The notes under the pieces: model-generated | Seen by the model: the letters and a program-made list of their open reading frames with translations, nothing else | What the model was told of the DNA's origin: nothing | Databases searched by the model: none | From: an uncultured virus (IMG/VR IMGVR_UViG_3300033153_001312) | Lineage: Duplodnaviria; Heunggongvirae; Uroviricota; Caudoviricetes; Crassvirales | Direction: 5' to 3' (one strand) | Virus record (IMG/VR): IMGVR_UViG_3300033153_001312 | Length of the DNA stretch: 64,000 nt | Translations under genes and position numbers: made by a program | In this document: positions 1,654 through 49,571 of the stretch, piece after piece | Layout: the number at the start of each line of letters is the position of its first letter | How positions within the stretch are numbered: the stretch's first letter is position 1

Positions 1654-2094
1654 ATGCCAAAGTCTACTCACAACTACCTAAAGTATTGGAGAGTTATACG
1701 CTATTGGGTAAAGGCTAAATACAATCTTACAACCCCTGATATAGAAATGATTCTATTTTTATATAGCGAAGAGTATTTCAATAAAACTAAATTTAAAGAA
1801 TTTGAAGAATTAATGTCTTGGGATGTAAAAAGATTTGACAGACTTTTAAGAGACGGTTGGATTCATGTGTGGAGAAAAGGATATGGTAAACATACAACCT
1901 TATACGAGCTTTCCTATAAAGGGAAGCGAGTGGCGAGTACAATTTATAAAAAACTTAATGGTGAAGAGATAGCAGAATCACCATCTATCAATCCTTTATT
2001 TAGAACGGATGCTTCTTATATGGATAAGGTTTATAGAAATTCTATAAAAGAACTTAATGAGTTTATAAAACAACAACGATATCTCTCTCAGTAA
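1654..2094 (+). CDS. Winged-helix (MarR-like) DNA-binding protein
   Basis: YNLTTPDIEMILFL...FDRLLRDGWI...YELSYKGKR pattern; TAAATTAAATTAA leader. Confidence 0.6.
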   Translation: MPKSTHNYLKYWRVIRYWVKAKYNLTTPDIEMILFLYSEEYFNKTKFKEFEELMSWDVKRFDRLLRDGWIHVWRKGYGKHTTLYELSYKGKRVASTIYKKLNGEEIAESPSINPLFRTDASYMDKVYRNSIKELNEFIKQQRYLSQ

Positions 2095-2320
2095 TAACAG
2101 TAAAACTATCATTATGTATAAGCATACTAAACCCAGCAGACTTATCATAATAAATAATTTGACCTTCTTTGATTTCTGAGACATCAGTACCTGGTTTTAT
2201 TACTTTACCTTTTTTATATCTAAACTCATCTGCATCTTCTGCAGTAAGTATTAACCCTGACTTAGTTTTTAATTCTTCTTTTACAGGTTTAATTATAACA
2301 TACTTGCCAATTGGTTTCAT
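2063..2320 (-). CDS. groES: Co-chaperonin GroES (Cpn10)
   Basis: MKPIGKYVIIKP, mobile loop KTKSGLIL, VITERDI. Confidence 0.9.
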   Translation of the reverse strand: MKPIGKYVIIKPVKEELKTKSGLILTAEDADEFRYKKGKVIKPGTDVSEIKEGQIIYYDKSAGFSMLIHNDSFTVITERDIVVVL

Positions 2321-2323
2321 ATC

Positions 2324-2494
2324 TTAATGTTTAAATATAGCATAAATTTTTGCTTTTCTTGATTGCTCAGTAATACGTCCTTTTATAGTTCTTGTAGGAA
2401 CTTCACATATTAATTCTTTACGAGGTTCTTCTTCTATTATTTGAGCCGAAGGCTCAAATTTTGGATTTTTTGAGTTAAGCTTTCTTCTTTTCAT
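2324..2494 (-). CDS. Hypothetical protein (56 aa, not in ORF track)
   Basis: MKRRKLNSKNPKFEP...IYAIFKH fills the groEL-groES gap. Confidence 0.5.
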   Translation of the reverse strand: MKRRKLNSKNPKFEPSAQIIEEEPRKELICEVPTRTIKGRITEQSRKAKIYAIFKH

Positions 2495-2563
2495 GTTTCT
2501 CCATGTTTTTAATTATGTTGTTTGTTTCTGTTTTTACACCAAACAGTTTTAAAATAAACTCTA

Positions 2564-4153
2564 TCATGCTCTCATATTTGTTACAATAGCATTAGTGCTA
2601 AGTATAGTTGTTGCTACACTTACTGCATTAGTCAGTGCGTTCTTTGTTACTTTCAGTGGATCAATAACACCCATCTCATACATATCTCCGTATTTATTAT
2701 TCTTTACATCATAACCGTAGTTATATTTTTTATCAAATATTTGATCAATAACTTTGTCATTATTTTTACCAGCGTTATTTAATATCTGCATAAGAGGTGA
2801 ACGAAGTGCCGATTCTAATATTAAAACTGCATCTTTCTCATCTTGGTTTTTAGTTTTAGCTTTTAACTTTAAAGATTCTCTAAATAATGCTATACCTCCA
2901 CCAGCCAATATACCTTCTTCAAGTGCAGATCTTACAGCACAAACAGAATCATCTACTCTGTCATACTTTTCTTTTTGTTCCATTTCAGAGTTACCTCCAA
3001 CATAAATACAACCAATAGCACCCGCTAAACTTGCTATACGTTCTTTTATAAATTCACGTGATGCTTTGTCTTTGGTATTTTTTTGTTGAACTTTTAACTC
3101 AGCAATTCTATCGTTTAACTCTGGTGTTATATTATCCTTTTTAAAAATTACAGTTGAATGCTCACCTACAATAACTTTATCTGCACTACCTAAGTCATTA
3201 GGCATAATTAAACTTAAATCATCACCAGTCTTCTCTGAATAGTATTTAGCTCCAACTGACATAGCGATATCTTGCATAAGCTCATGTTGCTTGTATCCAA
3301 ACTGTGGAGGAGCTATATTACAAAACTTTAAACCGTTACGAACTACGTTTGCCGCTAAAGTATTTATAACATTAGTAGAACATGGTGCAATAATTAACAG
3401 TTTATCTCCGTTGTTTATTACAGGCTTCAATACATTTTCTATTTGAAGTATGCTGTTAATCTCTGCATCGCACACTAAAATCTTAACATCATCAAGAATA
3501 CATTCATCTTTCTTTTGATTATTAATAAATAAATTAGATGACCAACCTCTTGCAATTTTAATTCCGTTAGTAACCTCTGCATATGTTTCAGATGTCATAG
3601 ACTTTTCTACAGTTACCATACCGTTGATTCCAACTTGTGTATATGCGTCTTTTATAATTTTACCAATATCTTTATCATTGTTAGCTGATATTGATGCAAC
3701 ATCTAACAACCTATCTTCTGTTACTTTTTTTGAATTACTTTTTAAATTAGATATAATTTTAGATGCATGAGTATTGATATGTCTAATAACTTCAGTTGTG
3801 TTTGACTCTGATGTTAATGTTTGTTGACCAGCTTTTACTAAAGCTTCTGTTAGTACAATAGCTGTTGTTGTACCATCACCCGCTGACTGAGCTGTACGAC
3901 TTGACGCTTCCTTCATCATCCTAACTGCTAAGTTTTCTATAGGATCATTTAAAAACACAGACTCAGCAACTGTTACACCGTCCTTAGTTACTGTCATGCC
4001 TGATGTATGATTTGGTGATTCTAACAACACTGTCTTGCCTAAAGGTCCCAATGTACTTTTGACTGCTTTAGAAATTTTAGTGATTCCTGTTATTAATTTT
4101 TGACGAGCTTCATCATCAAAGCTAAGTGTCTTTGGTATATAACCTTGTTCCAT
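2564..4153 (-). CDS. groEL: Chaperonin GroEL (Cpn60)
   Basis: STLGPLG, VTKDGVTVA, AGDGTTTA, EEGILAGGG, GVIDPLKV; lacks the GGM tail. Confidence 0.97.
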   Translation of the reverse strand: MEQGYIPKTLSFDDEARQKLITGITKISKAVKSTLGPLGKTVLLESPNHTSGMTVTKDGVTVAESVFLNDPIENLAVRMMKEASSRTAQSAGDGTTTAIVLTEALVKAGQQTLTSESNTTEVIRHINTHASKIISNLKSNSKKVTEDRLLDVASISANNDKDIGKIIKDAYTQVGINGMVTVEKSMTSETYAEVTNGIKIARGWSSNLFINNQKKDECILDDVKILVCDAEINSILQIENVLKPVINNGDKLLIIAPCSTNVINTLAANVVRNGLKFCNIAPPQFGYKQHELMQDIAMSVGAKYYSEKTGDDLSLIMPNDLGSADKVIVGEHSTVIFKKDNITPELNDRIAELKVQQKNTKDKASREFIKERIASLAGAIGCIYVGGNSEMEQKEKYDRVDDSVCAVRSALEEGILAGGGIALFRESLKLKAKTKNQDEKDAVLILESALRSPLMQILNNAGKNNDKVIDQIFDKKYNYGYDVKNNKYGDMYEMGVIDPLKVTKNALTNAVSVATTILSTNAIVTNMRA

Positions 4154-4430: not shown

Positions 4431-4456
4431 AATTTTCAAACAAACAAATTAAATCT

Positions 4457-4654
4457 TTAGTACTCGTATATATTACGATCACCATCCATACGCATCTTTG
4501 CTCTTTCAATACCGTCAGCGATACAGTCTATCTTATATTGTTTTTTCATTTGTTGTCTCATCATAGACGCTCTCTCAATACCTGACACACCATCTGGGCG
4601 TTCATTTATTAAGCGACCATCTTTTATAGTTAGGCCTTGATAGTTATTAGTCAT
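4457..4654 (-). CDS. Hypothetical protein (likely start MTNNY)
   Basis: ORF between a TATCTTTA promoter-like motif (~4670) and a terminator. Confidence 0.55.
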   Translation of the reverse strand: MTNNYQGLTIKDGRLINERPDGVSGIERASMMRQQMKKQYKIDCIADGIERAKMRMDGDRNIYEY

Positions 4655-5070
4655 AGTCTGATTTTTTTGTAAAGATAATAAATTTTTATTAGACATTTAG
4701 GGGTTGAGGGTTCTACATACTTATACACATAACTACTGCTTACGGAAATGGAATTTTTTTGTTAGGGGGGGTAGGAATTTTGTTTCGTTTTATAGGAATT
4801 TTTTGTCTTTTTGTTTCACCCCACACGCACTTACACACCCCCACTCACGTACTCCCAGAGCTGTCTGTCGTTCGTTCTAACGCACTAACTAAAAACGTTT
4901 GACATCCCACATTACTTACTGTCAAAGTTAAAGAGAGGCAAGGAGACTTCCCTTAGCCACAGTCCGACTCACACACACATCAAACAAATCACACTGACAA
5001 ACTTGACTCAAGATATTCACTGTCAATATATTAAAAGAGAACTTCAATATTAAAATCCGACATCAATATA

Positions 5071-5102
5071 TTTGCATAGTTATTAAGTATTTTGTAACTT
5101 TG
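5071..5102 (+). promoter_or_regulatory. Bacteroidota primary-sigma promoter (TTTG-N20-TAACTTTG)
   Basis: Matches the -33 TTTG / -7 TAnnTTTG consensus, upstream of the first early gene. Confidence 0.75.
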
Positions 5103-5143
5103 TATTAATTAACAGAGGGTTACACCTCACTAAAAACAAACAG

Positions 5144-5509
5144 ATGAAAAACTTAGAAAACTTTATTAATGATGCATTCAATAAATGCGTAGATGATATT
5201 GAAAATAGACTTGAGAAGAATACTGATGAGTATCAATCACAATTTGAGACAGAGACAGAAAGACTTGAACGTGAAGAGAGAGAAGAAATGGAGGAACAAT
5301 CTATGATAGAAATATATCGTAACTACAATGATGATATTAAACTTAGACATGAACTAACTGAATTTGAGTTATGGAAAGAAGACAATGTTGTAACAATAAA
5401 AACTGTAAATGATTGTCCAATATACAGTACTCAAGATGCATTATATCGTAATAGACTTAAAGGTGATAAAGCACTATATGATTATTTCGTAAAAGAATTC
5501 CGTTGCTAA
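5144..5509 (+). CDS. Early hypothetical acidic protein
   Basis: First ORF after the promoter; A-rich leader. Confidence 0.7.
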   Translation: MKNLENFINDAFNKCVDDIENRLEKNTDEYQSQFETETERLEREEREEMEEQSMIEIYRNYNDDIKLRHELTEFELWKEDNVVTIKTVNDCPIYSTQDALYRNRLKGDKALYDYFVKEFRC

Positions 5510-5522
5510 AACCAACAGACTT

Positions 5523-5562
5523 ACGACACCTCAATGTTAATCGCATTGAGGTTTTCGTGGTA
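5523..5562 (+). repeat. Conserved intergenic hairpin, copy 1
   Basis: ACCTCAATG-ttaatcg-CATTGAGGT with outer ACGA/TCGT, then GGTA. Confidence 0.8.
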
Positions 5563-5596
5563 GAGGACTAATCCTCGCAAAATTAAATCAAACAAA

Positions 5597-6130
5597 ATGA
5601 ACGTAGAACAATTTAAAAACATAGATAAATATAAAGTAACTGAATTAAGTGATGCAATTGATAAAGCAATTGATGTATCATTTAGTCAAATGATTGACAC
5701 AGTAAGAACTCAATGTTATATGTCACAAACACAAGATAATTGGGAAGACTGTGATGATTTAGAATTTCTTGAAGACATTCCAATGTTATTCACTGATGGT
5801 AGAGATATCAAAGAGTCAATTAAAAATCAAATGAAACGTGTTGTTATATCAACACTAACTGATTCAGATTGGGTAGGTAAGAATGATGCAATGTACAACC
5901 ATGTACGTGATAACTCTTGGGTAAGTGATGATGAACGTGCAAAACGTAATCCTAATAAATTTAGACAACCACCAACATCTACAGATGCTAAAATTTATGC
6001 TGAAGATATGATGAGACACTATCGTAAAATGGAGAGAGTTGTTCAAGGTAACTTTGGTTCTGAAATTGCAATGGAATTCCGTAAATACTTATTCTTTTTA
6101 ATTACAAAAATGTCCAAATCTGGAAATTAA
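5597..6130 (+). CDS. Early hypothetical protein
   Basis: 177-aa ORF with A-rich leader. Confidence 0.7.
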   Translation: MNVEQFKNIDKYKVTELSDAIDKAIDVSFSQMIDTVRTQCYMSQTQDNWEDCDDLEFLEDIPMLFTDGRDIKESIKNQMKRVVISTLTDSDWVGKNDAMYNHVRDNSWVSDDERAKRNPNKFRQPPTSTDAKIYAEDMMRHYRKMERVVQGNFGSEIAMEFRKYLFFLITKMSKSGN

Positions 6131-6150
6131 TTTTTGATCATAGAAACTTT

Positions 6151-6191
6151 CCACGTGCCTCACTACTAATCGTAGTGGGGATTTCGTGGTA
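6151..6191 (+). repeat. Conserved intergenic hairpin, copy 2
   Basis: CCACG-tg-CCTCACTAC-taatc-GTAGTGGGG-attt-CGTGG-ta. Confidence 0.8.
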
Positions 6192-6220
6192 AAAAACAAA
6201 TAATAATAAAATATAATATC

Positions 6221-6865
6221 ATGAAAAATACAGTAAAAAAACTTGTTATGAGGGAAATGAGAATGCCTCATATACACTTTATAACTAAACAAGGAAAAGC
6301 AATCGTAAGAAAAAAAGAGTTGCAACACATAATATGTGAGGCACAGAAAAAGATTGAACATAAAAATAAACCACTTGGTGAAAATTCAGAATCAGTAACT
6401 GAAAAGATTGATGACAATGGTAGAAAATACTACACTCATTCAAGTGGGTTTTATAATGTCACAATTGGAAAATGGGTTGATGAAGGTTTGTTGACTCGTA
6501 GTAAGGAAGATGGATATAAATTAACAGAGTTAGGTAGATTATTTGCATCCACAGATACACGTGCATATGAGATTGAAAAGTGGAAACGTAAATTCAAATT
6601 AGAAAAGGCACGTGCTGATAGATTAAATTCTCACACTAATGATTTGTTAATTCAGAAAAGAAAATTACAAGACAGAATTGATGAGATTTATTTTGGAAAA
6701 GAATTTATGGATTCAGATGACAAAGGTAGTCTACAAGAATATTTTGTTACAGATGAGTGTCAATCTATTGTGACATCATCACCACCAAATTCAATCATCA
6801 ACACTTGCTTAACTAATATGCAAGAAAGTTTAAATTGCATAACACAACATATTAATAAAGAATAA
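6221..6865 (+). CDS. Early protein with wHTH-like segment and coiled coil
   Basis: KWVDEGLLTRSKEDGYKLTELGR wing motif. Confidence 0.5.
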   Translation: MKNTVKKLVMREMRMPHIHFITKQGKAIVRKKELQHIICEAQKKIEHKNKPLGENSESVTEKIDDNGRKYYTHSSGFYNVTIGKWVDEGLLTRSKEDGYKLTELGRLFASTDTRAYEIEKWKRKFKLEKARADRLNSHTNDLLIQKRKLQDRIDEIYFGKEFMDSDDKGSLQEYFVTDECQSIVTSSPPNSIINTCLTNMQESLNCITQHINKE

Positions 6866-6882
6866 TTTTGTTTGTTTTTGTT

Positions 6883-6923
6883 CCACCAACCTCACTGTTA
6901 GTCGCAGTGGGGTTTTGGTGGTA
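6883..6923 (+). repeat. Conserved intergenic hairpin, copy 3
   Basis: CCACCA-a-CCTCACTG-ttagtcg-CAGTGGGG-ttt-TGGTGG-ta. Confidence 0.8.
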
Positions 6924-6959
6924 GTGGGCAATAGTGCTTACAAATAAAATTACAAACAA

Positions 6960-7259
6960 ATGAAAAAATTAACTGACACAACTGATATGCTTAATGAAGT
7001 GTACAAAGTTGTACTTAATAACTATGTTTCAATTGGAAAAGATAACACAAAATGTATTTTTGATAAGATAGATGATTTGCAAAGAACAATTTTGAATAGT
7101 ATTGCTATCATTCCTATTAATGAGTATGAACTCACGGATTCGGGAGATTTAAAATTATATAGAAACGGAGTTCTGTGGAATACTTATTATAATGTAGACA
7201 GTATTGCACAAGCTAAAATATTAATCGCTGATGAAAATAAAAAACTTGGTTATGAATAA
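6960..7259 (+). CDS. Hypothetical protein
   Basis: ORF with A-rich leader. Confidence 0.65.
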   Translation: MKKLTDTTDMLNEVYKVVLNNYVSIGKDNTKCIFDKIDDLQRTILNSIAIIPINEYELTDSGDLKLYRNGVLWNTYYNVDSIAQAKILIADENKKLGYE

Positions 7260-7617
7260 TATAGAGATAAATAAAAATGATGTGATTAGATTTAAACACA
7301 CAAAAAATATGTGGACAATAAAATATCCACGTGGATGTGGCTATATGTATAAAGACAGATGTGATAGTTGCGTTGGACACGTGAATAAAGATTGGTTACA
7401 TTATATGATTCGCACAGAAAAAGCAGAATTAATTAAATCAAAAACCACAAAGAAAAAGTATCTATTAATGACTGAAAATGAATTTGATGATGGTGATAGA
7501 TTTATAATTACTGCTAACAGTTATAAAGATGCTAAAGAACAAGCAGATATGTGGAATGCAGAAATTCTTTGGGAAATAGGAATAAACGGAAACATTATTC
7601 AATTACCATCAGCATAA
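7252..7617 (+). CDS. Hypothetical protein (likely start MNNIE)
   Basis: Start overlaps the upstream stop region. Confidence 0.6.
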   Translation: MNNIEINKNDVIRFKHTKNMWTIKYPRGCGYMYKDRCDSCVGHVNKDWLHYMIRTEKAELIKSKTTKKKYLLMTENEFDDGDRFIITANSYKDAKEQADMWNAEILWEIGINGNIIQLPSA

Positions 7618-7626
7618 ATTAATTAT

Positions 7627-7740
7627 ACGACATTTTACCTTGTAGAAAGGTTTGGGTTAGACGTTTTACGAAAACTCCATCTGACGTAAAAAAAACCGTC
7701 AGTAGATAAAATCTACAAAGTAAGATGTCGTTTTTTTTTT
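7627..7740 (+). ncRNA. Candidate multibranch structured RNA or complex terminator
   Basis: Closing stem ACGACATTTTAC-c-TTGTAGA / TCTACAA-a-GTAAGATGTCGT, two inner hairpins, poly-T. Confidence 0.45.
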
Positions 7741-7855
7741 GATCATAGGTACTTACGAGCTTTTAGTACTTACGAGAAATTTATTTGATATTCAGTAGGA
7801 TATTAAGTATTTTTTATGTATTTTTACCAAACTTATTAATTAAAATTACTTACGA

Positions 7856-8083
7856 ATGAAATCTAAACATAGTACTTACGACTATTTATTAACACCTAAT
7901 AATAACATAGTTGTTCATTATGAACTTTATGAACAACCAGAGGCAGAAGACAGATCAACGCCAGAGAAAAAAGAAATAATAATAAACAAACTCGTACTTC
8001 ACGGTGATGAAGTGCAAGATGAATTAGATTTCTTAATAGAAAACATAGAATCAGATATGGACTTAAATTATGAAAAATTATGA
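7856..8083 (+). CDS. Hypothetical protein
   Basis: 75-aa ORF after a promoter-like motif. Confidence 0.6.
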   Translation: MKSKHSTYDYLLTPNNNIVVHYELYEQPEAEDRSTPEKKEIIINKLVLHGDEVQDELDFLIENIESDMDLNYEKL

Positions 8084-9026: not shown

Positions 9027-9467
9027 ATGAGTAAAATAAATACTGACAGATATATGTCTACAAATGATTTTGTCTATAAAAACAAATTAGATAAAGAAGC
9101 TATTGAACTTTTTGGTGAAGGTTGGGAAGCCGAAGATGATATAGATCAGATAGAAAAATTATGTGAACACGTTAGTCCTAATAAATACATGGTTTGTTCT
9201 ATACATGGATTAAAATATGAGGATGATATTGAAGTTCGTGAAATAGATGGACTTACGACTAAAGAAGATATTATGGAGTTCTGTGATGATTTAGCTACAC
9301 AAATAACTGAGGATATACATGGAGATTTAACTTACATTGACATCCCTATAAGTGATGACACAAAAACTTTAATGAGTGAAGATAGTCTTAAATCATATCA
9401 TAATATTTACGGAGTTATAGAAGATTATATAGATAAAAATTATATCCTTAACTTTGTAAGAAAGTAA
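9027..9467 (+). CDS. Acidic hypothetical protein
   Basis: 146-aa ORF. Confidence 0.65.
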   Translation: MSKINTDRYMSTNDFVYKNKLDKEAIELFGEGWEAEDDIDQIEKLCEHVSPNKYMVCSIHGLKYEDDIEVREIDGLTTKEDIMEFCDDLATQITEDIHGDLTYIDIPISDDTKTLMSEDSLKSYHNIYGVIEDYIDKNYILNFVRK

Positions 9468-9471
9468 AATT

Positions 9472-10140
9472 ATGGATAAATTTATAGCAATAGTATCATG
9501 CAACTCTCAAAGCAGCTCTTATGGAGTAAGGGAAAAGTTAAGAAAACCTACATCTTACATTGATGTTGGTTATTCTCACAGCACAGAAGCTGTACTACAC
9601 AGTGCCTTGAATTCTTGGAAAAAAGGAAAAGATTTATGGTTCTGGAAAACCTATCCTAAACCTCTTAATTTTTTAGAGGTAGTTTTGAAATCATCAGCAA
9701 ATGAAGAAATTGAAATAGCACGTAGATTAAAAAACATTCCTTATACTCATTTTTATTATATGACAGACAATTTCTTGAAATTGACTGATGGTTATAATTC
9801 TCAAGTCTTATCAGTTATACCATACGATGAGGATATTTACGGAGTCATTACGGACATAGACACTTTAGATCCTAAGTTTGTAAATCGTGAAATTTATAAT
9901 AAAATTCGTGATAATGCAAACAACATTATTAAGATGTATTTTGATTCAGAGGGACTTACTGGCGATATTTATACATATCCTAAAGAGCTTCATTTGTCAC
10001 CACATAAAAATGAATTCAGAGTTCCTAATGAAGTAATTGACTATAATAAATTTAATTATGAGAATGGTATGGTAAGGGGTGACAGCTATAGTTTTGAGGC
10101 AAAAGAAAACTTTTTACATTTTGATTTGGTTAGTAAGTAA
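9472..10140 (+). CDS. Hypothetical protein
   Basis: 222-aa ORF with TAACTTTG at 9449-9456 upstream. Confidence 0.7.
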   Translation: MDKFIAIVSCNSQSSSYGVREKLRKPTSYIDVGYSHSTEAVLHSALNSWKKGKDLWFWKTYPKPLNFLEVVLKSSANEEIEIARRLKNIPYTHFYYMTDNFLKLTDGYNSQVLSVIPYDEDIYGVITDIDTLDPKFVNREIYNKIRDNANNIIKMYFDSEGLTGDIYTYPKELHLSPHKNEFRVPNEVIDYNKFNYENGMVRGDSYSFEAKENFLHFDLVSK

Positions 10141-10188
10141 TTTTTATGTATTTTTAAACCGAATTTAAAATTGTTTTCATTTTAGGGT

Positions 10189-19357: not shown

Positions 19358-19607
19358 ACAAAGATTGTTTTAGTTTTTCTTGAATTTCTACAATTTCAGC
19401 ACACTTTTCATATTCTTCAGTATAGATGAAATAATTTATAAGCTCTGTATATATAGGGTCGTTATATCTTAATTTTTCTTTGTTAGGGTCGTGAAGAAAC
19501 CATAATTCATCTTCTGTATCTAAAAAATCTATTAAAGTTCTTTTACCTGTAATTAATTCATACGTGTTATTAAAACACTTGTCTTCATCAAAATTATTCG
19601 TTTCCAT
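19350..19607 (-). CDS. Small protein with UVR-like C-terminal helix
   Basis: EEYEKCAEIVEIQEKL. Confidence 0.55.
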   Translation of the reverse strand: METNNFDEDKCFNNTYELITGKRTLIDFLDTEDELWFLHDPNKEKLRYNDPIYTELINYFIYTEEYEKCAEIVEIQEKLKQSLFN

Positions 19608-22600
19608 ATAAACTGTAGTATAATTCTGGTTGTTCTCTTTTCATTTGTGCTTTTGGCATCAATTTATTTCCACTCTGTAATCTTTTCTGTTCTTGTAATA
19701 TTTTATATAACTCAGGATCTGTTTCTTTAATAATTTTCATATCTTCTGGAGAGAATGACATACTTAAGGCTGGTTGATAAGAGGAACTAATACCTAATAT
19801 ATCATAGATAGCCTCTTCTTGTTTTGTGCCATCTTTTGCTATAGCATTATAAACTCCAACAAAAGGGTCAATCTGTGCTCCCATTAAAATCTCAACTAAC
19901 GGTTGTATACCCTCACCTGAGCTTGTTGCTTTTGATATTTTTCTAAATATTGATTTGTATGGATTTACAACATCATCGCCATAACCTCTTCTTCCTTTTA
20001 ACTTATTAATAGCTTCTTCAGATGCACCACCTATAAATGGAATCATGTAAAGTAAGTTTAATCCATACATAGCATCTTTAATTCTATCCATAGCTTTTTC
20101 TTGATCGTCATCATTACCCTTCATTAGTAAAGCTAAATTAGCTGCTATAGCAAACAAAACGTTAGCACCTGCGTAGTTTAATGCTAATCCTTTTATATCT
20201 TTAGAACGTACGTTTCGCACACCACCCTTTTCCTTAAGTGATCTCATTATATTTGTTGTTGTTTGCAATACTTTATTTATTTGTAAAAATATTGTACTAC
20301 CAAACATAGTAAATGCTCTTGCAAGTGGTTCTTGACTTTGTTGTAAAGGTATTTTATCTGTTCCTCTTCGTGACTGCTGTGTTGCATTGTAATCTGCAAA
20401 TTGTTCAGCTGCTTCAGCCTTTGACATTCCATTCTCTATGTTTTGTACATAGTTTACCATATAACCCATAACCCCCATAACATCTCCTAATACAGTAGGC
20501 ATAGCTGCTGCTTGTTTAAAAAACTTCCAAGAACGATTCCATCTTGCTTCAAAACCTTTTCCTGCAGTTCTTTTTTCAACTGGTTTTAAAGTTCTACTTC
20601 CTGACTCTAAACGGTATATATCTCCTTCCAAACCTTTTCTCCAACGATCTTTAAAGTCGGGAGATATTGTTTGTGCAAGTTGCATATAATAAGGAAGTCT
20701 TGCAATAACTTTAGCCATCCCTATCATAAAGCTAACCATTTTAGGAACTCTACTTCCTTTTACTCCTGGATAATCTTCAAAAGCATTAACAAAAGAAGTT
20801 GACTGTTTTATTAACTGTACAATTTTAAAAGATAATGCATATCCGGTAAATCGTGTCATTAGTTTTGCCATAGCACCAGCTGGCATTGCATTAGCTGTAG
20901 GATTTATAGCTAAATTAATAGACTGATATAACACATCTCTAATATTTAATCTATCTAACAAAGCATTTACAGCTGGAACTTTAAAGATTGCTTGTAAGTT
21001 TTTCACTCCCATAGCGTAAGCTTTAAATCTTTCCATTTGAGTAATATGATTTTCTAATGATTCAGTAAAACTAAAATTTAAATCTACAGCACCAACTTCG
21101 TCAGTTCTGTTTTTAGTAGCTGGAGCTGTAACGTCATTAAAAACTTTCATAAAGTTTCCTTGAAGTAAATCTGTAACCATAGTTGTAGAAGAAATACTTT
21201 TTGTAGGAAAGTAATTTGGTATTTGATCTAAGTTTACATAATTAGCTTGTTTATATACGTCATTGACACTTTCAAAATATTCAAGACTTAAGTAATCTAC
21301 AATTTTATCTACAAACTCTACTGCTTGTTCGCCCAACTGATCTCTTATAAAATCTATCTGTTCCTTACCAAGCCCTTGTTGAGTTAATTTTTCTCGTTGA
21401 GTTTTGTTTTGAGATAAAGCATAAATCCTCATCATTTGATTCATGCTATAAGTATCTTTTTCTCCATTAGATTTTGTTACTTCTATTAACCCGAATTTAT
21501 CAAATTTATTTTTCAAATCTTGATAACTTTCAATACCATCTATAGTAGCTGCAATAGAGTTTAATATTTCTATTTGTTTATAATAACCTCTTAATGCTTT
21601 CGTGTGCATTCTATTTAATGCTTGATAAACATTTTCGTAAAAAAATGTATTACCTTTTGCTACGTTATCCATTAAATTTGTTAAAGTTCCTAAATGCGAA
21701 AGTCTATTTCTAAAGAATCGTGTTATACCTAAAGGAGATACAAAATCAAAGTCACGTAAAAAGTCTAATACTTTTTCTCTTAATTTTTTTAACACTCCTC
21801 TGTTTTCTTCTTGGTTTAATTGATTAGCATCTTTTATTTTACCAAAGTTAGGATTTGGTTCTCCATTAGGGAAAAATTCAACATTATCAAACAATTGAGG
21901 ATAATTTTCTCTTATTTCCTCAGTAGCTGCAGTATATATGGAATTGTTTACTTCTGCACGTTCTAAACGTGACATATTTAATAAAGCTATAGATGCTTTC
22001 TTAGTATCTTTTAGTTGTTTTAATATACCTTCAACTGCTTCTAATTCTAAATTTTGTATGTTAGCAAAAGTGTCAAAAGCTAAAGCTCTGTTAATTAATT
22101 TTACTTCAGCTACTGTTAGCTTCTCTCCTCTTCTTTGTTTTTCTAATGCTATATTAGTTAACTCTTCATTAGCCATCATTTCTTGTTGAAGTTGTCTAAG
22201 GCCTCTTGCACGTGGACTTAATATATCACCTTCTTTTACAGTGTCAGGCCTTGTAACAATTTGTATTATATCTACAATGTCTTTGAAAAACTGTTTACCT
22301 TGTGCTTCTAAATTTGTTGCTCTTTGTTTATTTGGAGTTCCTTGAGCTTGTTTTTTAATTAAAGCTTTAATTTCTTTAATTAAACTTTGTTTTACTTGAT
22401 TTCTTTTTCTATCAATTAAATCAAAAACCTTTTCACTTATGCTTAAAATATTTTTATTATTTGCTTGTGCTATTTGACTAATTAATCTATTTAATTCATT
22501 TTTAGTATATGTAGCTTCTTTTGGTGCATACTTTCTTATTAACTGATTTAGTTGTAATTGTATTCTTCTTAAATCTCTTGCACCTTGATTTTTTATATAC

Positions 22601-25600
22601 AAGTCTCTTTTTAACCTCGCTATTCTGTTTTTTACTTGACTACCTTGAACCCTGCTTACCACTCCTGCATAAGCTACTTCTAATTGAGTTTTAATTGTTT
22701 TGAATTGTCTTTTAAAAATATCATTATCTCTTAAAATCTCAAATGCTTTTTTACCAATAGTAAAAGGAGTAGCGTCAGGATTTTCGCTAATATATTTTTT
22801 TAATTCATAAGTAACTTCATTATATAAAGTTTGTCCTTCATTTATACCACCTTCAACATTTGTAAACTCTGATGGCATTCCTGAGTAAGCACCATCTTTA
22901 TTCTCTATTGCTGCACGAGCTTCATCTATTGTTAGCTTACGATTATTTCGTAAGTATTCGTATATAGCTGCGTCACTATAATCTCTTGCACGTGCTTTCG
23001 CAACAACATCATTAATAGTGTCAGATGTATTAAAAATTCTTGTCTTTTGTGATTTATCTGAAGACATTGGATTATAAAATCTTCCGTCTATTTGAAAACT
23101 ATAACTAACAAAACGTGGTACATCACCAGGAACTTTTACAAAGTTTTCTTTTACTGTTATACCTGTTCCTTTTAATGCTTGTCTAATAAAATATGGATCT
23201 GATACATTTTTAGCAGGAATAAAACCTTTTTTATTCATACCAAAGTTTTTACCAATTTCTTTTGGACTACGAATTTTTTGAGACTTATCACCTTTTTCTC
23301 CTTTATAACTTCCTTCTACAACTGAGACATTACGAACTGCGTAATCTTTTCCGGATTTTTGCACAAGAACTTTACTCCCCGACTCTCTGTTTTGTGGTAA
23401 ATGTAGTATAGGTTTACTACCGTCCTTTAATGATATATGAAATGGATAGCTTGGGTGTGTATCTTTCTTAACTTCTACAGGACCATTAACTTCAACTACA
23501 GCATATATATCTCCCGTCTTTAATCCTTTAGTTAATCTTTCAGCTGCCACTTGAGCAATTAATTCAACTAATGCTTGAGAACCAGGTTTTCCTGAAACTA
23601 ATTTAGTTTTACCTTTACCAACTGATCTTGATTTATCACCTCCTAAAAACTCAGCTATAGCTGCTTGATCTTCTTGAGGTAGATTTTTAGCTATTTCACC
23701 TACAATATCTTTAACCACAAATCCTCTTTTTTCAAACGTAGTTGTTTTAGGATCAGTAAAATATTTTTGTATATCAGTTTTTAAATCTTTAGCACTTTGT
23801 CTTAAATTTATAGTACCACCTGCTTTTTTTACAGCTGAAGAAACTGCATTTCTAAAATTAGATGGAGATATTAATTTATTATCTAACATAGTATTTAGAA
23901 TAGCTAAAGTAGAATTTACACCCGAAGCACTGCTAACTAATTTAGAGTCTGTTCCTTTTGTTAAAGTTAAAAAAGCCCTACCTCCATTTGCTTTTAATTG
24001 TTCATTTAATCCTCTCGCTATAGAGTTTGCTGTTCCTTTTTTTCCCGATGCCCAAACATCACCAAATTTAGTTACAAAAAACACACCACCTTCTCCTTCA
24101 AAAATAACTTTACCTTTATATTTAATTTCTCCTGCTAACATATCATCGGGAGATGTAATTACAGTTTCTAACCCTTCTAAAAATTTTAAATCTTTTGGTT
24201 CAGTAACTAAACCTTTTTTTATCATTTCAGCTATACTATCTTGTTGAGTATATGAAACTTCAAAACCACCAATCTTTTGTTCTTTTAATGCATTAGCAGG
24301 GTTTTTTACTGTTTTACCCATTTCTATAGTATCATCTACTATATAATCAAATTCTTTAAAAGTAACTTCATCTCCATATATACTTTCCTCTACAACCTCC
24401 CCTTCTCTTACAGCACGTGATAAATTGTTTAATAAAGCTATAATAGCTGTGTCCTTTTTTAAAGTGCTAAATCCTATATCAGCATACTTTAGGCCTAATA
24501 ATTCAGCTAATTTCATTAAAAATCTTTGTACTAAGTTTTTGTTTTTTACATTTAAGGTAGTATATTCTTCTGCGAGCATACCAAAAAGTTCTGACACATA
24601 CTCTTCATTTTTCACTCCCTTATCATATAACTTTACAAATTCTTCTAATTTTCTTTTAGTTGCATTGTCTATGTCAGAATTTATTAGTGCTTCTATAAAT
24701 CTTCCCATAGCTGCTTCTATACGAACATCAGTCCCAAACTTTTCATATAATATAGCATGAAAAATTTCATGAGCAATAGTATATGGTTTCATATTAGACA
24801 CATTAATATGAATAGAATTAGTTTGTGACGAGAATAATCCCGCTGTCCCAGGTCTACCTGTTATATTATTATATTCATTTTGATCTGTATGTAGAAATAT
24901 TTTAGTCTTAGGTGCTATTTTAGATATTGCTTTAATAGCTTTTTTTGCTTTATCTACCACCTTGTCTAATTTAGACTTCTCTATTTTTGTTTTACCTTTT
25001 TTATTTATGTAAACATTTTTTTGAGGATTGTCTTTTTTAGTAGATTGTTTTATAATCTTATCTTCTTTACTTTTTCTACTCTCTACTTTCTTTTTCTTTT
25101 TCGTGTCTTTAGTAGTGTCTTTACTTTTGGTTTTTTCTTTACTCTTTTGGGTAGGCTGTTCGGGTCCAGTGTTTCGTTCAGAAATTTCTGAAACAGACTC
25201 GGTTTGTTTTTGGCCATCCACTTGAGTTGTGCTTGACTCTTGAAGGGCATTTTGTTTTTCTTTTATTTGTTGTGGTGTTGGATTATCCACACCTTCCTTT
25301 TTTAATTCGTTTATTGCTTGTTCTTCAGTAATTTCTGTTACCTCTGGTTGTACTGTTTCATCAACAACTTCTGTTTCAGTAGTCTGAGTTGTTTCAGTTG
25401 TTTCAGTTGTTTCAGTTGTTTCTTCCGTAGAACCAGGACGTGTTCCTCCTGCTTGAGGATCTCGTTCTATAGGTTTACCCTCGTCAAGTTCAATAGCTTC
25501 AGCTAATTCATCTGCTTCTTCTTTAACTTCTGGAGACGTTTCTTCTTCTGTAGTTTCAGTAGTCTCAGTTGTCTCACTACTTTTTTTCTTACTTTCAGAC

Positions 25601-42871: not shown

Positions 42872-44014
42872 TTATACTCGTTTTATACTTTTAATTTTGA
42901 GTCCTCTACCACTGCTTGTATCACCGATAGCTCTTATTTTTAAACCATCTTTTGACACACTCTGAGAAGCTTGTCTGATATCCATGTTAATGTTTTTTGA
43001 TTTTTTAGAAACATCAGCCACAGCATCAGCCATACCTTGCTCATAAAAAAACTTGGCGTATTTTTCGGGATTCATAGCAATTGATAATGCTTTATGGTAT
43101 CCCTTCGCATCGTTAATTAAACCGTTTTTGTCCATATATTTGCCAACAAAATTATTGACATCACTTTGAACATTTTTAATTTCCGATGCATCACCAGGCT
43201 TGTAAGTAAAATTTTTATCCCCGACATTAAATTCAAAACCTTTGAACTCATTGTTGAAAACCTCATCAGTTTTCTTGAGAAACCAATCATACTTCTTTTT
43301 CTGAGCTTCTTGCACAGTTTTAGATTCATCAATATAACTTGTATAAGCATCTAATCTTTCTCTGTCTTTGTCAGATAACCCATTCCCACTTGACTCAAGA
43401 GGAACTTTATATTTATCTTTTTGATCATTGAAATACTTTTTTGCTTTCGCAAGTTCTCTTTTTTTAGCTAACTTTCTTTTTTTAATATCTTTTGGATCAT
43501 CTAATTCATTATCAAAACTAAATTTATCTTCTAATAAATCTTGTATATCAAAACTATCCAGACCTTCCTCAATATTAGCATAGTAGTCAGCTAAAACTTG
43601 ATCATCTTCCATGGTAGTGTAGTCTTTTTGTAATTTATAAAAGTCTTCAATACCACGTCCTGTTTCTTTTTTATATTTTAAATATGTAGACACATCTTCT
43701 GGTAACTCTTCATTTACTTCTTTTTGTGCAAATAAATCGTCAACAGAGCTGATATCTCTATCATATCTATTTTTAATATATTCAAGAACGTCTTCGTCAT
43801 TTAACTCTGACGAGGGAGTTTCTTGTTGAACCTGAACTTCTTCTTTTACTTCTTCTTTTTCTACTACTTCAGGCTCTGTTTCTGTTGTTTGTTCAGCTAC
43901 AACATTAGTAGCGTTTTCTGCTTCTTCGTGTTCTTTTAGAAGTTTTTCTTCTATTTCTGCTTGAGATTTATTTTCTTCAATAAACTCTACAGCTTTTACT
44001 TTAATATTATCCAT
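42872..44014 (-). CDS. Putative scaffolding protein
   Basis: Acidic and helical, between portal and capsid genes. Confidence 0.6.
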   Translation of the reverse strand: MDNIKVKAVEFIEENKSQAEIEEKLLKEHEEAENATNVVAEQTTETEPEVVEKEEVKEEVQVQQETPSSELNDEDVLEYIKNRYDRDISSVDDLFAQKEVNEELPEDVSTYLKYKKETGRGIEDFYKLQKDYTTMEDDQVLADYYANIEEGLDSFDIQDLLEDKFSFDNELDDPKDIKKRKLAKKRELAKAKKYFNDQKDKYKVPLESSGNGLSDKDRERLDAYTSYIDESKTVQEAQKKKYDWFLKKTDEVFNNEFKGFEFNVGDKNFTYKPGDASEIKNVQSDVNNFVGKYMDKNGLINDAKGYHKALSIAMNPEKYAKFFYEQGMADAVADVSKKSKNINMDIRQASQSVSKDGLKIRAIGDTSSGRGLKIKSIKRV

Positions 44015-44067
44015 TTAATTTAATTTAATTTATACAAAGTTAATAATTATACAATAACTTTTTTAAG

Positions 44068-48753: not shown

Positions 48754-49009
48754 ATCCTTTTAATGTATTGTTTTTACTGTCCGATATATTTCCTTCTAAT
48801 AAATCTCTTTCTTCTTCTATTTTTTTTATAATCTCAAAAGCATCCATTATACATAGTTTTTTTGTAGCTGCAGCATTTTTTAATCTGTCAGCTGCTAATT
48901 CATCTTCTGCATCATATTTAATAATATCTTCTTTAGCTACTTTTACTAATTGTTTTACAGCCTTTTCTCCTGCTTCAATAATTTGTAGTTTTAATTCTTT
49001 ATTTGTCAT
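48731..49009 (-). CDS. Possible terminase small subunit
   Basis: Small helical protein overlapping the terL start. Confidence 0.4.
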   Translation of the reverse strand: MTNKELKLQIIEAGEKAVKQLVKVAKEDIIKYDAEDELAADRLKNAAATKKLCIMDAFEIIKKIEEERDLLEGNISDSKNNTLKGFAESRSK

Positions 49010-49571
49010 TTAATATTACTGTTATATTATTAGTAAACATTCTGTATAATATTTCATCTTCTACGGTAAACTCATATTCGCTTTCAGGTTCAAAAATTAC
49101 TTCGTCACCTTCTTTTACACCTAACTCCAAGAGTTGGTCGTTAATATATTTAATAACACCTATCAACGGTTCGTATTTTGTGTGTTTATCTAAAAAAGTT
49201 TCTTTTTTCTTTACAGGTTTTACAAAACAATATTTACCATGTGCTTTCCATTTACCGTTTTGTTTGTATAAAAAAAACTGATCTTCTTCAATAAAAAACA
49301 TATTTTCTTTAAAAAAACTTTTACCACTTTTTGTTTTACCATACATATCATTATAAAACTTAAATACATTATGATGAACTAATAGTGTATCTCCAACTTT
49401 TACATCACCTTTATAATGAAGTGGTAAAGATAAAACTTCAGCATAACGATTAGATACAGTAAAGTCTTCTTCAGAAACACTTGTTACAAACTCTAAACCT
49501 CCAATAGATTTTATATTATCATATCTTCGGTTATTGTAAGGCTTTACGATAAACGAATATAAAGCTCTCAT
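48999..49571 (-). CDS. Tandem GroES-like protein
   Basis: Two units: FIVKP...KSIGGLEF...VKVGDTLL and CFVKP...GVKEGDEVIF...YEFTVEDEILYRM. Confidence 0.6.
   Translation of the reverse strand: MRALYSFIVKPYNNRRYDNIKSIGGLEFVTSVSEEDFTVSNRYAEVLSLPLHYKGDVKVGDTLLVHHNVFKFYNDMYGKTKSGKSFFKENMFFIEEDQFFLYKQNGKWKAHGKYCFVKPVKKKETFLDKHTKYEPLIGVIKYINDQLLELGVKEGDEVIFEPESEYEFTVEDEILYRMFTNNITVILNDK

What the first reader, a model, noticed from the sequence alone, without database searches (positions are those of the whole stretch)
5523..6941. Three covarying bulged hairpins between consecutive early genes
Seen: three successive intergenic gaps (5523, 6151, 6883) each hold a ~40-nt element: outer stem, asymmetric internal loop, CCTCA-led inner stem, TA(A/G)TCG loop region, and a 3' GTGGTA. 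Stems show compensatory changes (AATG/CATT, ACTA/TAGT, ACTG/CAGT; ACGA/TCGT, CCACG/CGTGG, CCACCA/TGGTGG) and G-U pairs, which point to selection on RNA structure. Copies 1 and 3 are followed by a second small hairpin (GAGGA-ctaa-TCCTC; GTGGGCA-atag-TGCTTAC), and a similar one (GAGG-gttaca-CCTC) precedes gene 5144. Known analogues: T7 early RNase III sites and T4-type PeSL cassettes. Inference: an undescribed cis-RNA motif that processes, stabilises or antiterminates early mRNA, possibly also serving as a recombination point for single-gene cassettes.
Basis: partly seen in the sequence, partly recalled or inferred. Interest (0 to 1): 0.78.

Follow-up and report, generated by a model that had tools for sequence, protein, structure and literature searches.

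The report
Widespread intercistronic RNA hairpin of flavobacterial phages
The three hairpins are real copies of an uncatalogued, strongly conserved RNA structure that many uncultured phages of Bacteroidota, including unrelated ones, place between their small early genes, most likely to cut, protect or otherwise punctuate the long early message, though its function is untested.

Summary
Observation confirmed. Three sense-strand elements (5519-5565, 6148-6194, 6880-6926) fill all three intercistronic gaps of the first early operon of a flavobacterial podovirus. Each has an outer helix P1, a U-rich asymmetric internal loop and an inner helix P2. No other copy lies in the window and no Rfam family matches.

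The main new result is that they belong to a large family. The core is CCUC-stem-loop-stem-GGGG, then WUUU, N, GUGGUA. Each of two truncated IMG/VR scans found it in at least 128 DNA stretches. The scans yielded 82 distinct well-folded elements. Carriers include a tape-measure-bearing (long-tailed) phage that shares no detectable protein with this window.

Stems covary strongly. Loops vary and include GAAA and UUCG. The third P2 pair is U.G, C-G or U-A, never C.A. So the fold belongs to the sense RNA.

The 3' strand stays nearly invariant while early proteins are unrelated, and no phage protein co-occurs. This points to a conserved host machine or an RNA-only mechanism.

My best guess (about 0.4) is a processing and stability signal, like T7 early RNase III sites; GG|WUU also fits the RNase E consensus. 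Rivals are a leaky terminator or pause, a translation or insulation element, and a protein-loading site. Function is untested: no RNA data were available.

The parts
5519..5565 (+). Element copy 1: P1 (5523-5526 with 5555-5558), P2 (5529-5537 with 5543-5551), loop UAAUC, UUUU 5552-5555, tail CGUGGUA 5556-5562. It lies between gene 5144-5509 and gene 5597-6130.
   Evidence: z = -4.70; 53.9 bits; 49.9 bits. Its P1 register differs from the orthologous copies in relatives.
5563..5576 (+). Accessory hairpin GAGGA-CUAA-UCCUC directly after copy 1
   Evidence: It is conserved at the same place in relatives. A second hairpin of this kind follows 11 of 82 family members.
6148..6194 (+). Element copy 2: P1 CCACG/CGUGG, P2 CCUCACUAC/GUAGUGGGG, loop UAAUC, AUUU, tail CGUGGUA. 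It lies between gene 5597-6130 and gene 6221-6865.
   Evidence: z = -4.52; 72.7 bits; 61.5 bits
6880..6926 (+). Element copy 3: P1 CCACCA/UGGUGG, P2 CCUCACUGU/GCAGUGGGG, loop UAGUC, UUUU, tail GGUGGUA. It lies between gene 6221-6865 and gene 6960-7259.
   Evidence: z = -6.35, including a longer outer helix of the U-rich upstream tract with the A-rich leader; 68.3 bits; 57.9 bits
6924..6941 (+). Accessory hairpin GUGGGCA-AUAG-UGCUUAC directly after copy 3
   Evidence: GGCA-AUAR-UGCC versions recur in other contigs.
5071..5102 (+). Candidate host-type promoter of the early operon: TTTG, 20 nt, TAACTTTG. Assigned by reading only.
   Evidence: The motif alone occurs at chance level in the window (120 found against 109 expected), so the assignment is tentative. 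The Bacteroidota -33/-7 consensus is recalled.
5144..7617 (+). Early operon of five small ORFan genes (5144-5509, 5597-6130, 6221-6865, 6960-7259, 7231-7617). Three of its four junctions are about 90-nt gaps that hold the elements.
   Evidence: No Pfam or PHROG family matches any of the five.
7627..7740 (+). Operon-end compound hairpin followed by U10: a canonical terminator-like site of a different kind from the elements
   Evidence: -32.3 kcal/mol, z = -4.09

Best explanation
The three sites are copies of a widespread, uncatalogued structured RNA module carried by phages of Bacteroidota. The module is transcribed as part of a polycistronic early mRNA. It folds into an outer helix P1 of 3-7 bp, an internal loop whose 3' side is WUUU, and an inner helix P2 of 7-13 bp that starts C-G, C-G, U.G. 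A variable, often tetraloop-capped tip closes P2.

The 3' strand GGGG-WUUU-N-GUGGUA is nearly invariant. The 5' strand adapts to it.

I infer that the module is an intercistronic punctuation mark read by a conserved host machine. Most likely an endoribonuclease (RNase III or the RNase E/G homologue) cuts in or next to the U-rich internal loop. The upstream cistron would then end in the stable P2 hairpin, and the downstream cistron would gain a defined 5' end just ahead of its A-rich start region. Each small early gene would thus become a separately stabilised and translated message.

As a by-product, the conserved 15 nt form an island of homology at which early genes are exchanged between phages.

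Shown: the structure, its strand, the intercistronic position, and the spread across phages. Inferred: the cleavage, the enzyme, and the effects on stability and translation.
For: Structure and strand:
- Window clade: 94.6% of cells are paired against 81.5% in shuffles. 7 of 14 pairs show double changes. Covariation is 0.354 against 0.145, and 0 of 500 shuffles reach it.
- Wide family (77 sequences): 95.8% paired against 74.7%; covariation 0.511 against 0.113; 0 of 500 shuffles. Slid controls give at most 55% paired.
- Third P2 pair among 54 distinct elements with a stem of at least 7 bp: U.G 36, C-G 10, U-A 8, C.A 0.
- Loops among 82 distinct elements include 13 GNRA and 3 UNCG tetraloops in the sense reading, against 3 GNRA and 0 UNCG in the antisense reading.

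Position:
- All 19 copies in the window and 7 relatives lie between same-strand ORFs.
- Of 104 family members, 102 have an ORF start 0-44 nt downstream. 100 have an ORF of at least 40 codons ending within about 100 nt upstream.
- The first gene of the operon has no element. The operon ends in a different, canonical terminator. So the element is needed between cistrons.

Host factor rather than phage factor:
- Carriers have terminases 75% to 27% identical to the window's.
- G016 is a complete 48.7-kb genome with terminal repeats. It has a tape-measure protein, and tblastn finds no protein shared with any of the 69 window ORFs.
- No window ORF is present in all carriers.
- Downstream genes fall into 45 unrelated clusters.

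Enzymes and cleavage site:
- A Flavobacteriaceae genome encodes both an RNase E/G-family protein and RNase III.
- GG followed by WUU fits the RNase E core motif reported for Salmonella (PMC5222698, passages read).
- That position is A or U in 24 of the 25 copies found without constraining it.

Architecture:
- Two helices around an asymmetric internal loop, between early cistrons, parallels T7 early RNase III sites (recalled).
Against: - No RNA ends could be examined. No RNA run holds the region.
- P1 plus P2 is only 13-15 bp in the window. This is shorter than the roughly two helical turns usual for RNase III substrates (recalled).
- RNase III and RNase E have little sequence specificity. Neither explains the near-invariance of GUGGUA or of the U.G pair across unrelated phages.
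- P1 is weak or absent in some members. 13 of 82 have only a 2-bp Watson-Crick match to NGUGGUA. My first test, which allowed G-U pairs, barely exceeded shuffled flanks (5.93 against 5.51).
- The family alignments were gathered with patterns that fix the core, and rows with short stems were dropped: 29 of 133, and 47 of 101. Conservation of the core is therefore partly imposed.
- Cultured relatives lack the element, so no transcriptome applies.
Confidence: 0.4

Rival explanations
1. Leaky intrinsic terminator or hairpin-dependent pause (attenuator). The GC-based P2 hairpin plus U4 would make host RNA polymerase pause or partly terminate after each early cistron. This would grade expression along the operon. 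GUGGUA would be the pause or release context.
For: - P2 is a stable hairpin whose GC-rich base is followed directly by WUUU in all copies.
- GNRA and UUCG loops are common in terminator hairpins (the general point is recalled).
- Intercistronic attenuators are known from phage operons (recalled).
Against: - The simple terminator scan does not flag the three sites.
- The phage's own operon-end sites carry U8-U10.
- After U4 the tract is G-rich, which strengthens the RNA-DNA hybrid.
- 102 of 104 elements are followed within 44 nt by a same-strand ORF, so the family is not used at operon ends.
- A terminator does not need P1 or an invariant GUGGUA.
- Good copies are nearly absent from bacterial genomes: 11 of 121 matches have a stem of at least 7 bp. 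Hosts therefore do not use it as a terminator.
Confidence: 0.2
2. Translation or insulation element for the downstream cistron. In hosts that do not use Shine-Dalgarno pairing, the folded module would keep the A-rich start region free of upstream structure. Alternatively it would recruit the 30S subunit or protein S1 through the U/G-rich strand.
For: - An ORF start lies 0-44 nt downstream in 102 of 104 members.
- Hosts are Bacteroidota, whose start regions lack SD (recalled). The window genes have A-rich, SD-less leaders.
- Conservation across unrelated phages fits recognition by the ribosome.
Against: - The first gene of the operon and the tightly packed later operons lack the element.
- It is absent from structural (late) gene modules in the complete genomes examined.
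- Spacing to the ATG is not fixed, and an extra hairpin can intervene.
- Complementarity of the tail to a Flavobacteriaceae 16S rRNA is no better than at several other sites when G-U pairs are allowed.
Confidence: 0.15
3. Loading or binding site for a regulatory protein acting on transcription or mRNA. Examples are a host NusG paralogue or other elongation factor (ops- or nut-like antitermination), or an RNA-binding protein that recognises the U.G pair, the U-rich loop and GUGGUA.
For: - About 15 near-invariant nucleotides in one strand, presented by covarying helices, is the usual look of a specific protein site.
- One divergent copy has the tail GGCGGUAG. This equals the start of the enterobacterial ops element as I recall it.
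- A close relative, MW202828.1, has replaced the element at the same positions by another repeated hairpin, GUGUCGUUAACGACAC. Lambdoid phages swap nut specificities in the same way (recalled).
Against: - No phage protein co-occurs with the element.
- Antitermination sites are normally single and promoter-proximal, not between every cistron.
- Apical loops are not conserved across the family, unlike boxB.
- No host factor has been identified.
Confidence: 0.12
4. DNA-level element: a recombination site (attC- or PeSL-like cassette boundary), or a hairpin promoter for an injected phage polymerase as in N4.
For: - Mosaic breakpoints with relatives fall at the 5' edges of elements 1 and 2.
- The same element subtype occurs beside unrelated genes.
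- There are three copies before early genes, as with the three N4 early promoters (recalled).
- The phage has giant virion ORFs of unknown function.
Against: - U.G in 36 of 54 members means a C.A mismatch on the opposite strand.
- Orientation always follows the genes.
- No integrase or recombinase was found in the window.
- No host-type promoter adjoins the hairpins.
- The 2624-aa ORF has no D.D.D motif, no PDB sequence relative and no Pfam family.
- The operon has its own host-type promoter candidate.
Confidence: 0.05

Closest known systems
RNase III processing sites of the phage T7 early region (R0.3 to R1.3), and the analogous Bs-RNase III sites of Bacillus phage SP82. Both are recalled, not read here.
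   Same: - Repeated, related hairpins between consecutive early cistrons of a host-polymerase transcript.
- Two helices around an asymmetric internal loop.
- Presumed to yield separate messages with a 3' hairpin.
   Different: - The helices are shorter (13-15 bp in the window).
- One strand (GGGG-WUUU-N-GUGGUA) is nearly invariant across unrelated phages.
- Cleavage has not been demonstrated.
- The hosts are Bacteroidota.
PeSL (promoter-early stem-loop) cassettes of T4-type phages (PMC4122927, passages read; PMC2839356, search listing only)
   Same: - Conserved short regulatory motifs flank small variable early ORFs.
- They coincide with replacement boundaries between close relatives.
   Different: - A PeSL is a terminator stem-loop joined to a sigma-70 early promoter.
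- Here no promoter adjoins the hairpin.
- The element lies inside a polycistronic unit, and its hairpin lacks a full U tract.
Intercistronic mRNA stabilisers such as REP sequences in E. coli operons (recalled)
   Same: Stable hairpins between cistrons that could protect the upstream message from 3' exonucleases and set differential expression.
   Different: - REPs are host repeats found in either orientation.
- This family is phage-borne, always in the sense orientation, and has a conserved single-stranded tail.
Lambda nut / rrn boxB-boxA and the enterobacterial ops element (recalled)
   Same: A hairpin next to a conserved linear sequence in a phage early transcript. One copy carries an ops-like octamer.
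   Different: - There are several copies per operon, between the cistrons.
- The loop is not conserved.
- There is no cognate phage protein.
- No host counterpart has been identified.
RNase E cleavage motif RN|WUU (PMC5222698, passages read)
   Same: GG followed by (A/U)UU at the 3' foot of P2 fits the five-nucleotide core.
   Different: - The motif was defined in Salmonella.
- Here the site sits in a small internal loop, not in a long single strand.
- The Bacteroidota enzyme's preference is unknown.

Membership tests
T7-type RNase III processing site | Lies between cistrons of a polycistronic early transcript | tested here: met
   Three of the four junctions of the 5144-7617 operon hold an element. 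All 19 copies in the window and relatives are intergenic and same-strand.
T7-type RNase III processing site | Double-stranded region of about two helical turns interrupted by an internal loop | tested here: inconclusive
   The internal loop is present. P1 plus P2 is only 13-15 bp in the window. Copy 3 can extend through a U-rich/A-rich outer helix. The length requirement is recalled.
T7-type RNase III processing site | Cleaved by host RNase III | not testable with these tools
   No RNA run holds the region. The enzyme exists in a Flavobacteriaceae genome.
PeSL cassette | Stem-loop joined to a host-type early promoter | tested here: not met
   No -33/-7 pair lies next to any of the three hairpins. 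The only TAnnTTTG nearby (6863-6870) lacks a -33 partner at the right distance. The definition comes from PMC4122927.
PeSL cassette | Marks indel or replacement boundaries between close relatives | tested here: met
   Homology with L056, L058 and L061 resumes at 5507-5529 and 6120-6124. Gene 1 is replaced between 5142 and 5507.
Intrinsic terminator | GC-rich hairpin followed by a U tract (at least 5 U in 8) | tested here: inconclusive
   The hairpin is present. The tail UUUUNGUG is borderline, and the scan did not flag the sites.
Intrinsic terminator | Used at ends of transcription units | tested here: not met
   102 of 104 members are followed by a same-strand ORF within 44 nt. The window operon ends in a different hairpin with U10.
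N4-type hairpin promoter | Hairpin forms in the template strand | tested here: not met
   The third pair is U.G in 36 of 54 members, which is C.A on the template strand. GNRA and UUCG loops read in the sense strand.
N4-type hairpin promoter | Virion RNA polymerase encoded by the phage | tested here: inconclusive
   The giant ORFs have no Pfam or PDB sequence match and no D.D.D motif. One matches a PHROG of unknown function. No structure search was run.
Integron attC / cassette array | Tyrosine recombinase nearby, and a conserved R' core folded from the bottom strand | tested here: not met
   No integrase family was found among the window proteins scanned. The fold favours the top (sense) strand.
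Lambda nut-type antitermination site | Hairpin loop of conserved sequence bound by a cognate phage protein | tested here: not met
   Loops vary widely: GAAA, UUCG, UAAUC, CUGAAAYAAA and others. No phage ORF co-occurs with the element.
Any Rfam 15 family | Match to a curated covariance model | tested here: not met
   There were 0 matches at gathering scores in the window. In 4700-7900 at E up to 10, nine weak matches (eight snoRNA-like, one sRNA-like) appeared, none on an element.

The most novel reading that the evidence does not exclude
The element is a self-sufficient RNA signal read directly by a core host machine, with no phage protein involved. It could be a new small self-cleaving motif that separates cistrons. 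It could instead be a Shine-Dalgarno-independent element recognised by the ribosome or by RNA polymerase, which phages of Bacteroidota use to punctuate early polycistronic messages.

Three observations leave this open. About 15 nucleotides and a U.G pair are nearly invariant around a small internal loop. The helices covary freely. The element is shared by phages with no common proteins.
Probability: 0.12. Interest if true: 0.9.

Novelty: new variant of a known kind. Interest (0 to 1): 0.6.

Why it matters
Gene expression in Bacteroidota works by unusual rules: different promoters and no Shine-Dalgarno pairing. Almost nothing is known about how their phages organise early messages. This motif is short, sharply defined, abundant in marine and freshwater viral contigs, and shared by unrelated phages. 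It therefore gives a direct experimental handle on a host RNA-processing, transcription or translation step that these phages depend on. It is a ready candidate for a new RNA family. If it acts as a natural cistron separator or insulator, it could be used in genetic tools for Flavobacteria and Bacteroides. It also marks the borders at which early 'ORFan' genes are swapped.

Tried and rejected
- Known RNA family: none matched.
- RNA evidence: no RNA holder was listed for 5000-7800.
- The window's own assembly is not held. The nearest record, G001, lacks the region. blastn of the region against deposited phages found nothing.
- Cultured relatives (elemo, phi13:2, phi38:1, Gundel_1) and MW202828.1 have no convincing copy; the best hit scores 16.4 bits.
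- blastn of two family subtypes, and tblastn of one large G016 ORF (L470:1489-2862, a PHROG of unknown function), against deposited phages found nothing.
- Phage-encoded trans factor: no ORF is shared by all carriers. G016 shares none at all.
- Phage RNA polymerase, sigma factor or RNase: none was recognised among the window proteins scanned. The giant ORFs have no D.D.D motif.
- Host use of the motif: the genome-contig scan gave mostly chance matches. 110 of 121 had stems of 6 bp or fewer. A few probable Bacteroidota copies appeared, in a Mucilaginibacter MAG (two) and a Saprospiraceae MAG.
- Pairing of the tail with 16S rRNA: nothing stood out.
- Host-type promoter at the hairpins: not found. 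TAnnTTTG alone occurs at chance frequency.
- My first outer-stem test, which allowed G-U pairs, was uninformative. A reversed-flank control is invalid because the arm is nearly palindromic in reverse.
- tRNA-like readings: the window has no tRNA genes.
- Ideas weighed by thought only and dropped for lack of fit: CRISPR-repeat mimic, T-box-like tRNA-end pairing, group I P1 helix, Chi-like site.
- The metagenome-contig scan, structure prediction and protein-complex tools were not used.
Full report
WHAT THE WINDOW IS. The window is most of a phage genome of about 65 kb.
- Its large terminase is 73% identical to that of the uncultured podovirus MW202828.1.
- It is 45% identical to Flavobacterium phage elemo and 32-38% identical to Cellulophaga and Tenacibaculum phages.
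- The window encodes GroEL/GroES, an Erf-type recombinase, an exonuclease, a primase-helicase, a helicase and methyltransferases on one arm.
- Packaging, virion and lysis genes lie on the other arm.
- Genes have A-rich leaders without Shine-Dalgarno sequences, as expected for a Bacteroidota host (recalled).

THE OPERON. On the + strand, a candidate host-type promoter lies at 5071-5102 (TTTG, 20 nt, TAACTTTG). I assigned it by reading only, and the -7 word alone occurs at chance frequency. Five small genes without any family match follow: 5144, 5597, 6221, 6960 and 7231. A long compound hairpin with U10 follows them at 7627-7740 (z = -4.09). Elsewhere genes abut or overlap. Only this operon has three gaps of about 90 nt.

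THE OBSERVATION. Each of the three gaps holds one element.
- The elements lie at 5519-5565, 6148-6194 and 6880-6926.
- The core pattern occurs 3 times against 0.23 expected; 1 of 100 shuffles reached 3.
- The folds have z-scores of -4.7, -4.5 and -6.35.
- The accessory hairpins after copies 1 and 3 are present.
- The hairpin claimed before gene 5144 is not supported (z = -0.70).
- A covariance model built from 15 copies finds exactly these three in the window, at 54-73 bits. The next hit scores 11.5 bits.
- Rfam has nothing: 0 matches at gathering scores, and nine chance-level matches off the elements (eight snoRNA-like, one sRNA-like) at E up to 10.

CLOSE RELATIVES. A first exact-pattern scan of IMG/VR gave 42 stretches.
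- Of the 35 distinct matches printed, 15 had the full layout, including the window's three.
- Seven related contigs carry one to three copies at the same three positions. They also carry divergent copies with other loops (UGAAAG, a 9-nt loop, a 10-nt loop).
- In one copy P1 is fully compensated: CCUAC/GUAGG.
- On this 22-row alignment (15 distinct rows, fitted to the model) both helices are supported. 94.6% of cells are paired against 81.5% in shuffles. 7 of 14 pairs have double changes. 0 of 500 shuffles reach the covariation score.

THE WIDER FAMILY. I relaxed the pattern to CCTC, 11-25 nt, GGGG, WTTT, N, GTGGTA.
- A variant that leaves the third pair open hit 128, again at the limit.
- In the first set, 104 of 133 matches have a P2 of at least 6 bp, and 70 have at least 9 bp.
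- The same pattern in the far larger bacterial collection gave 121 matches. Only 11 of them have a stem of at least 7 bp, and several of those are GC-rich chance hits.
- The motif is therefore real and essentially viral.
- After dropping shorter stems and rows lacking enough flanking sequence, 82 distinct elements with a stem of at least 7 bp remain.
- P2 positions 5-8 covary massively in 77 aligned sequences: 95.8% paired; covariation 0.511 against 0.113; 0 of 500 shuffles; slid controls at most 55% paired.
- Caveat: the patterns fix the core, and I dropped short-stem rows. Conservation of the core and pairing of positions 1-6 are therefore partly imposed.

RNA, NOT DNA.
- In the scan that left the third pair free, the 54 distinct elements with a stem of at least 7 bp have U.G 36, C-G 10, U-A 8 and C.A 0. 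The pair is thus maintained through a wobble that would be a mismatch on the other strand.
- CM-found copies with a different P2 base (GCUG.../...CGGC, CCUG.../...CGGG) keep the U.G.
- Loops include 13 GNRA and 3 UNCG tetraloops in the sense reading, against 3 and 0 in the antisense reading. About 19 elements share a 10-nt loop CUGAAAYAAA over different stems.
- Orientation always follows the genes.

POSITION.
- Of 104 elements, 102 have the ATG of an ORF of at least 30 codons 0-44 nt downstream.
- 100 of 104 have an ORF of at least 40 codons ending within about 100 nt upstream.
- The 103 downstream ORFs fall into 45 clusters, most of them small ORFans.
- In complete genomes there are 1-4 copies on one strand, clustered near the replication and small-gene modules, never in the structural module.
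- In the window and its relatives the first cistron has no element, and the last is followed by an ordinary terminator. The element is specifically something placed between cistrons.

P1 IN THE WIDE FAMILY. The 3' strand is almost constant and the 5' arm adapts.
- Watson-Crick complementarity of the 16-nt upstream flank to NGUGGUA averages 3.77 bp. Shuffled flanks give 3.15 +/- 0.085, with a maximum of 3.45 in 500 shuffles.
- When N is G, the arm reads CACC in 22 of the 29 elements that have a CAC. When N is C, it reads CACG in 5 of 9.
- Single copies show CGUGU with ACACG and GUAGG with CCUAC.
- P1 is short, however. In 13 of 82 elements it is only 2 bp by this measure.

WHO READS IT.
- Carriers have terminases 75, 73, 73, 49 and 27% identical to the window's.
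- One complete 48.7-kb genome with terminal repeats (G016) has a tape-measure protein and other terminase and portal families. By tblastn it shares no homologue with any of the 69 window ORFs. It nevertheless has a 60.7-bit copy between two small ORFs.
- No window ORF is present in all carriers.
- MW202828.1 is as close to the window as three carriers are. At the same positions it has another repeated hairpin, the 16-nt palindrome GTGTCGTTAACGACAC, 16-25 nt before each early ATG.
- A conserved strand of about 15 nt without a conserved phage protein argues for a host machine or an RNA-only mechanism.

MECHANISM (INFERRED). I favour a processing and stability signal.
- The layout and position parallel T7 early RNase III sites (recalled).
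- GG followed by WUU fits the RNase E core motif RN|WUU (PMC5222698, passages read).
- That position is A or U in 24 of the 25 copies found without constraining it.
- A Flavobacteriaceae genome encodes both an RNase E/G homologue and RNase III.
- A cut there would leave P2 as a 3' cap on the upstream message and would start the downstream message just before its A-rich leader.

Against this reading:
- The helices are short for RNase III.
- Neither enzyme explains the invariance of GUGGUA or of the U.G pair.
- No RNA ends could be examined.

The rivals are a leaky terminator or pause, a translation or insulation element, a protein-loading site, a DNA-level site and a self-cleaving motif. I weigh them in their own sections. 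Only the DNA-level readings are clearly disfavoured.

RECOMBINATION.
- Against three relatives, nucleotide homology stops at the start codon of gene 1 (5142) and inside gene 2 (about 5900).
- It resumes at 5507-5529 and at 6120-6124, which are the 5' edges of elements 1 and 2.
- A piece of the window's gene 1 matches the 3' part of a relative's gene 2 (proteins).
- Nearly identical element subtypes stand beside unrelated genes in different contigs.
- This fits exchange of early genes at conserved regulatory islands, as proposed for PeSLs (PMC4122927). It does not show a dedicated recombination function.

NOVELTY CHECKS.
- Rfam 15 has no match.
- Full-text searches for five motif strings found only unrelated primers and similar (70 papers; the 15 listed were unrelated).
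- A search on Flavobacterium phage intergenic stem-loops found nothing relevant in the 12 listed of 2,209.
- Searches on Cellulophaga phage transcription gave nothing on such hairpins. The crAss-like phi14:2 preprint reports no common motif upstream of early transcripts (passages read).
- Earlier notes of this scan describe other intercistronic hairpin families in other phages, with the same T7-like reading, but none with this sequence. They are leads, not support.

Noticed in passing
window 7751-7881, also 5519-5526 and 9251-9258: The 8-mer ACTTACGA occurs 7 times against 1.36 expected; 0 of 100 shuffles reach 7. Four copies cluster around the promoter-like region and the start of gene 7856. 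One forms the unusual 5' arm of element copy 1. It may be an operator of a phage regulator.
   Followed up: partly
window 7777-7826 and 10107-10156: A repeat of about 50 nt (78% identical) ends in ...AGTAWTTTTTATGTATTTTTA. It lies in the two larger gaps that open the next + strand gene blocks. These are probably a second class of promoters.
   Followed up: no
L043 (MW202828.1) 43744-45900: The perfect 16-nt palindrome GTGTCGTTAACGACAC occurs at least 8 times in the early region of this close relative. Most copies lie 16-25 nt before a start codon, one is inside a gene and one is in the divergent control region. It takes the place of the window's element.
   Followed up: partly
window 6866-6959: The U/G-rich tract upstream of copy 3 can pair with the A-rich leader of gene 6960. 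This encloses the element and the accessory hairpin in a long helix (-38.7 kcal/mol, z = -6.35). Similar U-rich tracts precede some copies in relatives. The helix could mask the start region or lengthen an RNase III substrate.
   Followed up: no
loci L065, L083, L119, L132, L134, L192, L371, L388 and others: About 19 of 82 family members share a 10-nt apical loop CUGAAAYAAA over different, covarying stems and in different gene contexts. This points to a subfamily-specific function of the loop.
   Followed up: no
window 4800-4990: An unusual C/A-rich, G-poor tract (runs of CACAC and CCCAC) lies in the divergent control region between the - strand gene 4457-4696 and the early operon.
   Followed up: no
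window 2063-4153 and 48999-49571: The phage encodes GroEL (529 aa), GroES and a second GroES-like protein next to the terminase.
   Followed up: no
window 19594-27468 (-): A 2624-aa ORF has no Pfam family, no PDB sequence relative and no D.D.D motif. Only residues 131-557 match a PHROG of unknown function. Relatives carry even longer ORFs at this place.
   Followed up: partly
L474 (G017) 4450-4509: A divergent family member has the tail GGCGGUAG instead of GGUGGUAG.
   Followed up: no
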